DNA from: an uncultured Alphaproteobacteria bacterium
GTDB lineage: Bacteria; Pseudomonadota; Alphaproteobacteria; HIMB59; GCA-002718135
DNA length: 64,000 bases
Direction of reading: 5' to 3'
NCBI GenBank assembly: GCA_902615745.1
Contig: CACMQB010000003.1
Span: forward strand, 40,041 to 104,040
Part shown: positions 26,033 to 32,710 of the stretch, in pieces
Numbering within the stretch: position 1 is the stretch's first letter
How the letters are laid out: every line of letters begins with the position of its first letter
Made by a program: the position numbers and the translations under genes
Notes under the pieces: generated by a model
The model's database searches: none
Told to the model about the DNA's origin: nothing
The model's input: only the letters and a program-made list of their open reading frames with translations

Positions 26033-26362
26033 TTAAAACACCATTCTCACTAAATTTACAGTAATTAAAATCATGATAAAATAAATAAGATAATTAATTG
26101 CTACTTTAATAAATTTGGCTGTCTTTTTCGATGTGACATAATCTTCAATAATTGTTTGCAGTCCTAATTTTGAATGTAGAAGCATAGATTGCATCATCAC
26201 AAAAAATAAGAATGCATTAACATAAGACTGAAAAAAAATTTCTATTTCAGAATAAGTCATCTTTGATAATGATATTGCAGAGTATATAAACCAAAACGTC
26301 AATGGTATTAAAATTGAAGCAGTAATTCTTTGGGTTAACCATTTAAAAGCATAATTTTTCAT
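26033..26362 (-). CDS. sdhD: Succinate dehydrogenase membrane anchor
   Basis: W..QRITA and H..LGLQTIIEDYV motifs; hydrophobic; between sdhC and sdhA. Confidence 0.93.
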   Translation of the reverse strand: MKNYAFKWLTQRITASILIPLTFWFIYSAISLSKMTYSEIEIFFQSYVNAFLFFVMMQSMLLHSKLGLQTIIEDYVTSKKTAKFIKVAINYLIYFIMILITVNLVRMVF

Positions 26363-26730
26363 GCGAAGTACCAGACAACTAAACTAGAAATTAAAGTTAA
26401 ACATATAACAGCATAACCCGATTTATATACTTGAGATAATTCCATTCCAATACCGAATGACCAATATAATTTTCTACATCCATTAAATAAATGGTAAAAA
26501 ATACCGACAGTCCAAATCATTAGAACTAGTTTAAACAAAATACTCTTAGAAAGAGTTTCAAAATAAATATAAAATTCGGGACCAAAACTAATTAAAAAAA
26601 ACCAAATTGAAATTAATAGTGCACCCACACTTAATCCTATTCCAGATATCCTATGAAAAATTGAAAATACTGCTGTAAGTACTCTTTTGTGAATAGATAG
26701 GTGAGGTGATAATGGTCTATTATCAGTCAT
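26359..26730 (-). CDS. sdhC: Succinate dehydrogenase cytochrome b556 subunit
   Basis: RPLSPHL, SIFHRISG and YHLFNG motifs. Start placed at the ATG at 26730 (MTDNRPLSPH); 26739 is also possible. Confidence 0.94.
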   Translation of the reverse strand: MTDNRPLSPHLSIHKRVLTAVFSIFHRISGIGLSVGALLISIWFFLISFGPEFYIYFETLSKSILFKLVLMIWTVGIFYHLFNGCRKLYWSFGIGMELSQVYKSGYAVICLTLISSLVVWYFA

Positions 26731-26899
26731 TTTTTTCATTTTTTTTATGTTCCATAAGTAAGTGTTTTTCTTCAAATTTCAAAATATTAATGGTTTAGTT
26801 ATTTTTTTCTTACTATCACGGAAGTTTGTAAAATGTTGATAAAAAGTGGCAAATTTTATCAAAATCATCCAAATTTAATGCCAAATTTAACTAAAAATC

Positions 26900-26928
26900 T
26901 TGAATTTTAAATAGATAGATATTACTCT
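26900..26928 (+). promoter_or_regulatory. Putative sigma70 promoter of the downstream structured RNA
   Basis: TTGAAT (26900-26905), 17-bp spacer, TACTCT (26923-26928); predicted +1 near 26934-26935, at the first base of the closing stem. Confidence 0.55.
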
Positions 26929-26934
26929 TAATAA

Positions 26935-27069
26935 GCCGGATAATACTCGTTTCTTAGCTTCGGAGGAACGCCAAGAATTTTAATTATCTTACCCGCCGTT
27001 TGATAATTAGTTGAGTTTCTTATTCTAGAGAAGTGTCTGCCAAGGTACAAACTAGTTTTAGAGTCCGGC
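26935..27069 (+). ncRNA. Unassigned structured non-coding RNA (~135 nt, multi-stem junction)
   Basis: Terminal GCCGGA/TCCGGC pairing, three internal hairpins, G-U pairs that form only on the + strand, locally raised GC, upstream promoter, no ORF in the track. Confidence 0.7.
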
Positions 27070-28059
27070 CTACTTTAAATTTTTATTAAAAAATTCTTCC
27101 ATCTTTTTAGAGTATACTTCTGGATATTTAAACATAGCATCTACATGATAAGAGTTTTCAACTAACCAAAACTCAGCATTAATTTTATTTTGATTTGTGT
27201 ATTCTTTAAAATAATTAAAGTGTCTTGTTAACATTCTTGTATCAGAGTCGCCATGAGTAAAAAAATAATATTGGTTCTTTGATAATTTTTTAGCTGGAGA
27301 TAATTCTCTTGGATCTGTTCCAGTTAAGATTCTTCCAGCTAAACTAACTACTGGCCCAAATTCTATAGCAAGACCATATCTTGCTATTTCATCTTTTAAA
27401 ATCATATTAAATTCAGCAAGTGAACTATCTGCCCACACTGCACGTATTTCCGGTTCTGCATGTGCTGCAAAAATAGAGGTGCTTGCACCAAGAGATATTC
27501 CATGTAATCCAATGCTATTAGACTTGAAACCAATTTTTTTTAAAAAATCAAATGCACCAAGAATATCATTATATGACTTTAAACCTAAATCATCATAACT
27601 ACTTACAGTATCACTTTGGCCGTAGTTTCTTAAATCTATCGTAAGAACATTAAATTTTTTATTAACTAAAAAACTTGCAATAAGATTTGCTTCAGACTTA
27701 CATTTACCATTCGGGCTTATACCGTGTGTTACAATTATAATTGGTCTATTTGGAAAATAATTAAACAGCCATCCATTAATCTTAATGTCTGGGTCACGAG
27801 ATTGAAAGTATACATCTTGCCATTCATCTAAATAATAGTCTTTAAAGTTAAAATTTTCTCTTACTTTTTGTCGTGCAAGAATAGAATATTCATGTGAGTC
27901 AACTGCTGTACTCCATGAATTAGGAAGAGATCCTTCGTGTAAACCACAAGTTGGATCTATTTTTAAAATTTGATAAGCAACATAAAAACCTGCAGTAAAA
28001 TAAACTACTGTTAATAAAACTACAGTGCTTACTAAAAATCTGATTATATATTTCATCAA
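27070..28059 (-). CDS. Membrane-anchored alpha/beta hydrolase
   Basis: N-terminal TM helix, THG, DLRNYGQS, GISLG nucleophile elbow, HGDSD and a C-terminal His. Confidence 0.85.
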   Translation of the reverse strand: MMKYIIRFLVSTVVLLTVVYFTAGFYVAYQILKIDPTCGLHEGSLPNSWSTAVDSHEYSILARQKVRENFNFKDYYLDEWQDVYFQSRDPDIKINGWLFNYFPNRPIIIVTHGISPNGKCKSEANLIASFLVNKKFNVLTIDLRNYGQSDTVSSYDDLGLKSYNDILGAFDFLKKIGFKSNSIGLHGISLGASTSIFAAHAEPEIRAVWADSSLAEFNMILKDEIARYGLAIEFGPVVSLAGRILTGTDPRELSPAKKLSKNQYYFFTHGDSDTRMLTRHFNYFKEYTNQNKINAEFWLVENSYHVDAMFKYPEVYSKKMEEFFNKNLK

Positions 28060-32635: not shown

Positions 32636-32710
32636 GGTCTCGTGGTGAAATGGATATCACACGTGTCTTCGGAACATGGATTTGGGGTTCGAGTCCCTAC
32701 GAGACCGCCA
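32636..32710 (+). tRNA. tRNA-Arg (anticodon UCG)
   Basis: Full cloverleaf: acceptor GGTCTCG/CGAGACC, D-loop with GGA (A20 Arg identity), anticodon loop CT-TCG-GA, T-loop TTCGAGT, encoded CCA; 75 nt. Confidence 0.96.

What the first reader, a model, noticed from the sequence alone, without database searches (positions are those of the whole stretch)
26900..27069. Stand-alone ~135-nt multi-stem RNA gene of unknown family, divergent from sdhC
In a window with almost no intergenic DNA, this stretch is retained and is locally GC-rich. Seen directly: a closing stem GCCGGA (26935-26940)/TCCGGC (27064-27069), alternatively extended by ACTC/GAGT; hairpin CGUUUCU-UAGCUUCGG-AGGAACG (26948-26970); a long arm with UAAUUAUC/GAUAAUUA around the loop UUACCCGCCGUUU, extendable by AAGAA/UUCUU (26973-27021); and an arm CUAG-AGAA-GUGUCU-GCCA-AGGUAC-AAA-CUAG with a purine-rich internal loop. 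Three G-U pairs favour the + strand. A TTGAAT-17-TACTCT promoter puts +1 at the first stem base. The 3' end abuts the stop of the convergent hydrolase, as the tRNA abuts asd. No same-strand gene follows, so it is unlikely to be a riboswitch. I could not match it to tRNA, 5S, SRP, RNase P, tmRNA or 6S. The exposed CCCGCC loop could be a pairing seed (inference). This is my best candidate for a new RNA class.
Basis: partly seen in the sequence, partly recalled or inferred. Interest (0 to 1): 0.85.

Follow-up and report, generated by a model that had tools for sequence, protein, structure and literature searches.

The report
Small RNA aimed at a MarR regulator
This is a real, previously uncatalogued 135-base regulatory RNA gene of one family of abundant marine bacteria, and its most conserved arm is a perfect 16-base antisense match to the start of a MarR-type regulator gene elsewhere in the genome.

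Summary
Window 26935-27069 (+) is a single-copy structured RNA gene with no Rfam match. A covariance model finds it in 59 of 78 genomes of the window's family. It finds none in 71 genomes of the sister family, and a refined model finds none in 150 other alphaproteobacterial families. All 53 distinct copies carry a + strand TTGAAT/TTGAAA -35 box 35-37 nt before G1. Five helices are supported: 92.8% of cells pair, 11 pairs show compensatory changes, and G-U cells outnumber A-C cells 173 to 2, which fixes the strand.

New here: nt 93-108 (AGAGAAGUGUCUGCCA, window 27027-27042) are perfectly complementary to +2..+17 of a MarR-family gene on another contig. This is the longest complementary match in the genome. 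The site AUGGCAGA(C/U)ACUUCUCU is found in 62 of 78 family genomes and 0 of 71 sister-family genomes. The two genera whose RNA variant lacks this arm also lack the site.

Best reading: a trans-acting antisense sRNA that blocks translation of the MarR mRNA. No Hfq was found. Two weaker candidate sites lie in cell-division genes, the ftsZ ribosome-binding site and the rsmH coding region. It is a new family of a known kind. Strand and transcript ends were not shown by RNA data.

The parts
26900..26905 (+). -35 box TTGAAT of the RNA's promoter
   Evidence: All 53 of 53 distinct homologues carry TTGAAT (44), TTGAAA (8) or TTGTAA (1) 35-37 nt before G1, while the spacer sequence varies.
26923..26928 (+). 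-10 box TACTCT, of the form TAnnnT, 17 nt after the -35 box
   Evidence: TAnnnT at 17-nt spacing occurs in 50 of 53 copies. It is a weak match to TATAAT and was not listed by the consensus scan.
26935..27069 (+). the 135-nt RNA gene
   Evidence: CM R1 matches over the full length at 167.2 bits. Structure counts are and the strand test.
26935..26941 (+). P1 5' strand (nt 1-7), pairs with 27063-27069
   Evidence: The five pairs counted (nt 1-5 with 131-135) are 100% paired. Three of the five show compensatory changes: C-G to U-A in 16 copies and GCUGA/UCAGC in one genus.
27063..27069 (+). P1 3' strand (nt 129-135). A U-rich tail follows in about half of the lineages.
   Evidence: At least 7 T in the 10 nt after the stem in 26 of 53 copies. 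The window's own tail is CUACUUUAAA and overlaps the hydrolase stop codon.
26946..26948 (+). P2 5' strand CUC (nt 12-14), proposed partner of GAG at 27013-27015
   Evidence: 100% of cells pair. The only changes are C to U and A to G, both giving U-G pairs.
26950..26977 (+). P3 region (nt 16-43) with the invariant GCUUCGGAGGAACGCC. Nt 28-39 are complementary to a 12-nt site in rsmH.
26981..27009 (+). P4 hairpin (nt 47-75) with the invariant loop CCGCC (26993-26997)
   Evidence: 7 of 12 pairs have compensatory changes. The loop plus flank CCGCCGUUU is complementary to AAACGGCGG in the ftsZ ribosome-binding site.
27025..27055 (+). P5 arm (nt 91-121): CUAG / internal loop / GUGUCU-GCCA-AGGUAC / CUAG
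   Evidence: 99-100% of cells pair, and every change on one side gives a G-U pair. The hairpin on its own is weak at -4.2 kcal/mol.
27027..27042 (+). anti-MarR seed AGAGAAGUGUCUGCCA (nt 93-108)
   Evidence: It is a 16-nt perfect complement to G000:C1:56580-56595, which is +2..+17 of a MarR-family gene. This is the longest complementary match in the genome and the top of 1440 start regions. The duplex energy is -28.8 kcal/mol. 37 of 53 copies are identical, 14 carry G-U-compatible changes, 1 has a 1-nt loop deletion and 1 has a mismatch.

Best explanation
Window 26935-27069 (+) encodes a ~135-nt trans-acting antisense small RNA, transcribed from its own sigma-70-type promoter divergently from sdhCDA. 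It folds into a closing stem (P1), a short helix (P2) that encloses two hairpins (P3, P4), and a third hairpin (P5).

The GCCA loop, the 5' strand and the internal loop of the weak P5 hairpin form a 16-nt seed. This seed pairs with nucleotides +2 to +17 of the mRNA of a MarR-family transcription regulator encoded on another contig (G000:C1:56579-57040). That mRNA has a short leader with no obvious Shine-Dalgarno sequence. A duplex over the start codon and the first five codons would keep the 30S subunit off and repress synthesis of the regulator. It might also affect the lysyl-tRNA synthetase gene, whose start overlaps the MarR stop.

Shown: the RNA structure, the strand, promoter conservation, the complementarity, and the co-occurrence of seed and site.

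Inferred: that the RNA is made as a discrete species, that the two RNAs pair in the cell, and that the outcome is repression.
For: (1) Real RNA on the + strand.
- 53 distinct homologues give 92.8% paired cells, 11 pairs with compensatory changes, and 0 of 500 shuffles as high.
- G-U cells number 173 against 2 A-C cells.
- A TTGAAT-type -35 box is present in 53 of 53 copies and TAnnnT in 50 of 53, at fixed distance from G1, with variable spacers.

(2) One copy per genome (one fragmented assembly also had a partial second hit), same place (hydrolase / RNA / sdhC), in 59 of 78 family genomes and 6 of 8 genera of that family sampled (context).

(3) Target.
- The 16-nt perfect complement at the MarR start is the longest complementary match in the 1.48-Mb genome; the next ones are AT-rich 12-15-mers against variable parts of the RNA.
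- It ranks first of 1440 start regions.
- By my arithmetic from 28.8% GC, such a match is expected about 0.02 times by chance.

(4) Co-conservation.
- The exact site AUGGCAGAYACUUCUCU occurs once per genome, at the MarR start, in 62 of 78 family genomes and 0 of 71 sister-family genomes. The reversed-pattern control gave 0.
- In five other genera the protein is only 44-49% identical, yet the 17 nt are unchanged.
- Third codon positions of codons 2-5 agree in 120 of 124 cells, against 288 of 372 for codons 7-18.

(5) Natural knock-outs. The two genera (G070, G131) whose RNA at the same locus lacks P5 have MarR genes with unrelated N-termini and no site.

(6) Changes that do occur keep the duplex.
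- RNA A98G is seen in 13 of 53 copies and A93G in 1.
- Target C+9U is seen in 7 genomes. All give G-U pairs.

(7) The duplex at -28.8 kcal/mol far outweighs the P5 hairpin at -4.2 kcal/mol.
Against: - No direct transcript evidence. Contigs of four RNA-labelled runs from four studies cover the element, but they begin 37-85 nt upstream of the predicted +1 and run 72-377 nt into the hydrolase gene, at depths like the neighbours. They show neither a discrete 135-nt species nor the strand.
- The single-sequence fold is not better than shuffles on the + strand (z -1.34) and is better on the minus strand (z -3.25).
- The window's own -10 box (TACTCT) is weak, no canonical terminator was found, and the window's own 3' tail is not U-rich.
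- One copy (G077) has a C-A mismatch in the duplex.
- Three genomes have a MarR hit but no exact site and were not examined.
- G127 has the site but no RNA was found; it is 80% complete.
- Seed and site are nearly invariant, so there is no true double-sided covariation between them. The contrast between genera with and without P5 rests on two genera that may be one event.
- P3 and P4 are even more widely conserved than P5 and are not explained by the MarR target.
- No Hfq was found, though the genome is 88.5% complete.
Confidence: 0.75

Rival explanations
1. The functional molecule is the minus strand: a structured 3' UTR of the hydrolase mRNA or a far-upstream leader of sdhCDA. In that case it carries the same 16-17-nt word as the MarR 5' end (UUGGCAGACACUUCUCU against AUGGCAGACACUUCUCU) as a shared binding site for one trans-acting factor.
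For: The hydrolase, the element and sdhC all lie so that a minus-strand read-through transcript would contain the element. The minus strand folds better in a single sequence, z -3.25. The RNA-library contigs join the element to the hydrolase 3' end and extend upstream of the + strand promoter.
Against: 173 G-U cells against 2 A-C cells means the conserved helices exist only on the + strand. The two invariant G-U pairs of P5 would be A-C on the minus strand. The conserved promoter geometry reads on the + strand. U-rich tails follow P1 on the + strand in 26 of 53 copies, and no terminator-like feature was seen on the minus strand.
Confidence: 0.07
2. The conserved P1/P3/P4 core is a ligand- or protein-binding domain. 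One version is an orphan riboswitch-like sensor whose P1 plus U-tract decides whether transcription runs on as antisense RNA into the convergent hydrolase gene. In this reading the MarR complementarity is secondary.
For: The invariant blocks of about 20 nt in junctions and loops are longer than a seed needs. P1 is followed directly by a U-run in many lineages. The hydrolase was not found in 4 of 4 genomes that lack the canonical RNA. The contigs run from the element into the hydrolase gene. P3 and P4 survive in the two genera that lost P5.
Against: There is no match to any riboswitch family. In G070 and G131 the variant RNA faces a different convergent gene, so the link to the hydrolase is not kept. 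Nothing here identifies a ligand. This reading does not explain the 16-nt match or its co-loss with P5.
Confidence: 0.08
3. It is a very divergent 6S RNA, that is, an RNA polymerase-binding open-promoter mimic.
For: 6S (RF00013) was not detected at E<=10 in the window's genome or in 5 further genomes of the order that are 92-99% complete, so the slot is unfilled. The RNA has paired 5' and 3' ends.
Against: No RF00013 match at the locus even at E<=10. The RNA is 135 nt with two three-way junctions and only about 24 bp along its longest axis, not a ~180-nt rod with a central bubble. It is absent from the sister family, which also lacks a detectable 6S. The 16-nt antisense match is not a 6S feature.
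Confidence: 0.02
4. The shared 16-17-bp word is a DNA operator for one transcription factor, present both at the MarR start and upstream of sdhC. The RNA structure would be incidental.
For: The same word occurs at two loci in every genome that has it.
Against: The word is not palindromic, whereas the MarR promoter carries its own conserved palindrome TTTGTATACAAA twice. The word lies inside a helix with G-U-only variation. A DNA site would not explain the promoter, P1 or the compensatory changes.
Confidence: 0.03

Closest known systems
Trans-encoded base-pairing sRNAs that occlude the start codon region (the 'five-codon window' rule; recalled from the literature, not from a call)
   Same: It has its own promoter, a conserved seed, pairing from +2 to +17 of the target, and seed and site are conserved together.
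   Different: The seed is unusually long for a trans-encoded sRNA, at 16 nt perfect. It is buried in a weak hairpin of a five-helix RNA. No Hfq was found in the genome. There is no separate terminator hairpin.
Staphylococcus aureus RNAIII acting on rot mRNA (recalled)
   Same: It is a multi-hairpin regulatory RNA whose hairpin loops start the pairing with the translation initiation region of a winged-helix regulator. The MarR here also matches Pfam Staph_reg_Sar_Rot at E 4.2e-06.
   Different: There is no sequence or family relation. RNAIII is about 514 nt, encodes a peptide and uses C-rich loops against the Shine-Dalgarno sequence. Here the match covers the coding start.
DicF (RF00039), the E. 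coli prophage sRNA that blocks ftsZ translation (function recalled)
   Same: It is analogous only to the weaker candidate site: the loop CCGCCG(UUU) is complementary to the ftsZ ribosome-binding site AAACGGCGG.
   Different: No Rfam match. It is chromosomal and lineage-wide, not prophage-borne. The ftsZ match of 9 nt is near chance level on its own.
6S RNA (RF00013)
   Same: It is a small stable-looking RNA with paired ends, and no other 6S was detected in the order.
   Different: The architecture and length do not fit, and there is no model match.

Membership tests
Any Rfam 15 family | Covariance-model match at or near the gathering score | tested here: not met
   One search found only a tRNA at 32636-32707 in the whole window. 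One search, run on 26700-27200 at E<=10, gave 7 matches of 9.9-17.2 bits against gathering scores of 45-167, none credible.
6S RNA | RF00013 match | tested here: not met
   no match at the locus or anywhere in the genome at E<=10.
6S RNA | A rod of about 180 nt with a large central bubble flanked by long helices | tested here: not met
   the RNA is 135 nt with a branched fold of five supported helices.
6S RNA | Binds sigma-70 holoenzyme and templates product RNA | not testable with these tools
   Needs biochemistry.
Riboswitch / cis leader | A same-strand gene or expression platform downstream | tested here: not met
   The next gene is convergent in the window and in the distant genera examined.
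Riboswitch / cis leader | Specific ligand binding | not testable with these tools
   No ligand is suggested by any search.
Trans-acting base-pairing sRNA | An independent promoter directly upstream | tested here: met
   -35 box in 53 of 53 copies and TAnnnT in 50 of 53, at fixed distance from G1. This is a sequence prediction only.
Trans-acting base-pairing sRNA | A defined 3' end or terminator | tested here: inconclusive
   P1 is followed by at least 7 T in 10 nt in 26 of 53 copies. No canonical terminator is present in the window copy.
Trans-acting base-pairing sRNA | A conserved seed complementary to a target translation initiation region | tested here: met
   16 nt perfect against +2..+17 of the MarR gene. 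The match is kept in 31 of 31 start regions read from six genera.
Trans-acting base-pairing sRNA | Seed and site gained or lost together | tested here: met
   The site is in 62 of 78 family genomes and 0 of 71 sister-family genomes. The RNA is in 59 of 78 and 0 of 71. The two genera with a P5-less RNA have no site.
Trans-acting base-pairing sRNA | A discrete transcript and a measured effect on the target | tested here: inconclusive
   RNA-library contigs cover the element but show no strand, ends or level. Regulation cannot be tested here.
Hfq-dependent sRNA | Hfq encoded in the genome | tested here: not met
   no PF17209 match in the genome, which is 88.5% complete.
CsrB/RsmY-type protein sponge | CsrA encoded, and many GGA loops | tested here: not met
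   no PF02599 match.

The most novel reading that the evidence does not exclude
The RNA is a modular, Hfq-independent regulator with three separate conserved seeds.

- An ancestral core is present in all eight genera of the family sampled. Its P3 (GGAGGAACGCC) would pair with an invariant GC-rich 15-mer near the 3' end of rsmH, just upstream of ftsL-ftsI.
- Its P4 loop (CCGCCG) would pair with the invariant ftsZ ribosome-binding site ACGGCGGAG.
- A later-acquired arm, P5, would silence a MarR regulator.

The RNA would thus tie cell division to a transcriptional programme in a streamlined, very abundant marine lineage.
Probability: 0.2. Interest if true: 0.75.

Novelty: new member of a known kind. 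Interest (0 to 1): 0.55.

Why it matters
Streamlined marine bacteria are thought to carry very few regulators, and for this uncultured alphaproteobacterial family I found no regulatory RNA described. Here is a family-wide RNA with a concrete, testable target, a MarR-type regulator. A natural experiment supports it: genera that lost the arm also lost the site. It is a ready-made case for a heterologous reporter test with compensatory mutations, and a marker for reading metatranscriptomes of this group. If the two candidate sites in cell-division genes also prove real, the RNA would be a rare example of a three-seed regulator of division that works without Hfq.

Tried and rejected
- **Known families.** SRP RNA, tmRNA and RNase P RNA were each found elsewhere in the genome, so the element is none of these. 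6S was not found in six genomes of the order, which neither helps nor hurts.
- **Coding.** Indels between the invariant blocks are not multiples of three, and the stems covary. I rejected a small protein on either strand.
- **CsrA sponge or Hfq sRNA.** Neither protein family was found in the genome.
- **Wider distribution.**
  - Of the 80 loci listed I gave 34 to the model: all 29 whose titles were not marine alphaproteobacteria, plus 5 others. 7 matched, all with marine-type titles. The other 27, including Streptomyces, Kitasatospora and rhizobia, are chance hits.
  - No match was found in 150 other alphaproteobacterial families.
- **Expression.**
  - 20 runs hold at least half of the sampled words, and 12 of them are on record as RNA.
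  - Laying contigs of 4 runs gave pieces 26879-27202, 26891-27141, 26898-27227 and 26850-27446.
  - These show no strand, ends or relative level. No contig covered about 26770-26850 in any of the four runs, which proves nothing.
  - I draw no conclusion on transcription from this.
- **Naive duplex scan of GGCGG sites**. ftsZ was not outstanding at -17.2 kcal/mol, and most hits lie inside genes.
- **Whole-RNA duplexfold ranking**. Apart from the top hit it gave implausible long-loop duplexes, and ftsZ ranked 379 of 1440.
- **Chance estimates for the weaker sites.** By my arithmetic the 12-nt rsmH match is expected about once by chance genome-wide, and the 9-nt ftsZ match about 1.7 times within ribosome-binding regions. 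Both are offered only as candidates.
- **Extra pairing upstream of the MarR start.** A second stretch, UACAAAC with GUUUGUA, appears in the window lineage. The RNA side varies in other lineages, so I dropped it.
- **MarR operator search.** The palindrome was not found near the RNA gene.
- **Weak blast matches.** The one at G000:C5:85093 lies in an rpoB-like coding region and is chance. The one at G019:C1 was not examined.
- **Dropped rows.** One truncated copy (L179) was dropped before the 53-sequence alignment. For L075 the ends given by the model were wrong: the true closing stem lies 24 nt further out, and the copy was re-cut.

Full report
**What is in the window.**
- GCCGGA is at 26935-26940 and UCCGGC at 27064-27069.
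- TTGAAT is at 26900-26905, followed by 17 nt and TACTCT at 26923-26928.

The flanking ORFs are all on the minus strand:
- sdhC (26359-26775), sdhD and sdhA on one side;
- an alpha/beta hydrolase (27070-28059), ZapE and an MFS transporter on the other.

A + strand RNA is therefore divergent from sdhC and convergent with the hydrolase. The genome has 28.8% GC. It carries an alphaproteobacterial two-piece tmRNA at 222 bits, plus SRP RNA and RNase P RNA elsewhere.

**Known families.**
Rfam 15 at gathering thresholds finds only a tRNA in the whole window. At E<=10 on 26700-27200 there are 7 matches of 9.9-17.2 bits, all far below their cut-offs. 6S RNA was not found in this genome or in five others of the order.

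**Homologues and distribution.**
- BLAST found the stretch in 21 of 60 relatives.
- A covariance model built from 17 copies found one full-length match per genome (one fragmented assembly also gave a partial second hit) in 60 of 150 genomes of the order: 59 of 78 in the window's family, in six of its eight genera sampled, and 0 of 71 in the sister family.
- A refined model found nothing in 150 other families of the class.
Its credible hits were all uncultured marine alphaproteobacterial genomes by title.
- In every genome examined the element sits between the hydrolase stop and sdhC.

**Structure and strand.**
From all loci I extracted 53 distinct copies; one truncated copy was dropped. With a structure of 39 pairs, one search gives:
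- 92.8% of 2054 cells paired, against 34-43% when partners are slid by 1-3 columns;
- 11 pairs with changes on both sides;
- none of 500 shuffles reaching any of the five measures.

Support by helix:
- P1 covaries: C-G to U-A in 16 copies and GCUGA/UCAGC in one genus.
- P4 has 7 covarying pairs and closes on an invariant five-base loop, CCGCC.
- P2, P3 and P5 vary only through G-U pairs.

Across all cells there are 173 G-U pairs and 2 A-C pairs. These helices therefore exist on the + strand only.

The fold of nt 14-43 is not settled.

Against this, the single-sequence energy is unremarkable on the + strand (z -1.34) and better on the minus strand (z -3.25).

**Promoter and 3' end.**
- All 53 copies have TTGAAT (44), TTGAAA (8) or TTGTAA (1) 35-37 nt before G1.
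- 50 of 53 have TAnnnT after a 17-nt spacer whose sequence is free.
- After P1, 26 of 53 copies have at least 7 T in 10 nt.
- The window's own tail is not U-rich and overlaps the hydrolase stop.
- The consensus scan lists no terminator and does not list this promoter, because its -10 box is weak.

**The target.**
I ranked all 1440 start regions of the genome by duplex energy with the RNA. One stood far ahead. An exact search confirmed it. Nt 93-108, AGAGAAGUGUCUGCCA, are perfectly complementary to G000:C1:56580-56595. This 16-nt match is the longest in the genome apart from the gene itself. The next ones are AT-rich 12-15-mers against variable parts of the RNA.

The site is +2..+17 of a 153-residue MarR-family protein. 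Its gene follows a ferredoxin gene, and its stop overlaps the start of a class I lysyl-tRNA synthetase gene.

By my arithmetic from base composition the match carries about 34 bits against a search space of about 28 bits, or roughly 0.02 expected by chance.

**Co-conservation.**
- The MarR homologue occurs in 67 of 78 family genomes and 0 of 71 sister-family genomes.
- The exact word ATGGCAGAYACTTCTCT occurs once per genome, at the MarR start, in 62 of 78 and 0 of 71. The reversed control gave none.
- In the 31 start regions I read, the word is unchanged (27) or has C+9 to U (4). This holds although the proteins of the other five genera are only 44-49% identical and the sequence from +18 onward takes 26 distinct forms.
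- Variation on either side keeps the duplex: RNA A98G in 13 of 53 copies, A93G in 1, and target C+9U. All give G-U pairs. One RNA copy has a mismatch.

**Natural loss.**
Two genera of the family gave no full model match. At the same place next to sdhC, each has a related RNA with a conserved promoter, a closing stem CCAGGAA/UUCCUGG plus a U-run, the block UUCUGGGAGGAAUG, and a hairpin with a CCGCCG loop. Neither has the P5 arm. Their MarR genes start MNSNN... and MEKIH... and have no site. The N-terminal peptide is therefore dispensable for the protein, and the site goes with the arm.

**Mechanism.**
The P5 hairpin is weak (-4.2 kcal/mol, with two invariant G-U pairs), while the intermolecular duplex is strong (-28.8 kcal/mol). 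The GCCA loop faces UGGC of the start codon region and could start the pairing.

The MarR mRNA appears to have a short leader without a Shine-Dalgarno sequence. It lies downstream of a promoter that overlaps two copies of the palindrome TTTGTATACAAA. A duplex over +2..+17 should therefore block initiation. That is an inference from established knowledge of such sRNAs, which I recall rather than cite.

No Hfq or CsrA gene was found.

**Weaker leads.**

*ftsZ.*
- CCGCCGUUU of P4 is complementary to AAACGGCGG in the ftsZ ribosome-binding site. That is the only other copy of the 9-mer in the genome.
- ACGGCGGAG is present in 28 of 28 family genomes read, including those with the variant RNA. The 4 sister-family genomes read have UUGCGGGG instead.

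*rsmH.*
- GGAGGAACGCCA of P3 is complementary to 12 nt inside rsmH, about 140 nt before ftsL.
- The 15-mer GGCGTTCCTCCCGCC is exact in 62 of 79 family genomes, across all eight genera.
- Its synonymous sites do not vary, although flanking codons do.

Each match is near chance level in a single genome, and both partners are invariant. I rate them as candidates only.

**Expression data.**
Twelve RNA-labelled runs hold most of the stretch. Contigs of four runs cover the element but begin 37-85 nt before the predicted +1 and continue into the hydrolase gene. They give no strand or ends. This neither confirms nor excludes a discrete + strand RNA. It is the main gap in the case.

**Literature.**
Five searches found no description of this RNA. 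They covered HIMB59 or AEGEAN-169 with RNA terms, four sequence words, and MarR. For PMC5069720 I read only passages found by term search, and it does not mention the RNA. Supplements were closed.

**Verdict.**
This is a genuine new sRNA family of a known kind, with a well-supported target. Confidence in the antisense-to-MarR reading is 0.75.

Noticed in passing
G000:C1:56550-56576 (outside the window); the same place in L244-L275: The MarR promoter carries two copies of the palindrome TTTGTATACAAA (the second often reads GTTTGTATAAAA) between a TTGACA/TTTACA -35 box and the start codon. They are conserved in all eight genera, including the two that lack the sRNA site. This is probably the regulator's own operator.
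   Followed up: partly
G000:C1:142455-142469 (rsmH coding region); L276-L289: A GC-rich 15-mer, GGCGTTCCTCCCGCC, is invariant at synonymous sites across eight genera of a 29% GC lineage, while flanking codons vary. It suggests an RNA-level constraint inside rsmH, just upstream of ftsL.
   Followed up: partly
L290-L293 (sister-family genomes G114, G130, G137, G152): Near-copies of that 15-mer (GGCATTCCTCCCGCC and variants) sit in sequence with stops in the one frame I translated. They are flanked by inverted repeats (AGAGAGCGGGC...CCCGCCTCTCT), as in a non-coding hairpin with an anti-Shine-Dalgarno-like loop.
   Followed up: no
G000:C1:157090-157130 and L213-L243: Upstream of ftsZ there is a conserved TTGACG followed by a hairpin ACGAUUUCG...AAAUCGU. 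Its loop varies and it shows G-U changes across genera.
   Followed up: no
window 26836-26862: An inverted repeat, TTGATAAAA-N9-TTTTATCAA, lies between sdhC and the RNA's promoter. It is conserved only among close relatives.
   Followed up: no
L210 1470-1608 (G036, sister family): Next to sdhC, where the RNA gene would be, there is a TTGAAT promoter-like box and a GC-richer leader (GGUCGAGAACCGGAAC...CACCCCGCAUGAGA) running into a + strand gene. It has no Rfam match at E<=0.1.
   Followed up: no
whole genomes G000, G036, G037, G060, G061, G070: No 6S RNA (RF00013) match at E<=10 in any of six genomes of the order, which are 88-99% complete.
   Followed up: partly
G000:C1:57033-57040: The class I lysyl-tRNA synthetase gene starts 8 nt before the MarR stop codon, so the two are probably co-translated. 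pyrD follows.
   Followed up: no
window 27070-28059 and genomes G036, G037, G070, G131: The membrane-anchored alpha/beta hydrolase next to the RNA was not found in 4 of 4 genomes that lack the canonical RNA.
   Followed up: partly
window 32636-32707: A tRNA gene on the + strand, 56.5 bits. It is the only Rfam match in the window.
   Followed up: no
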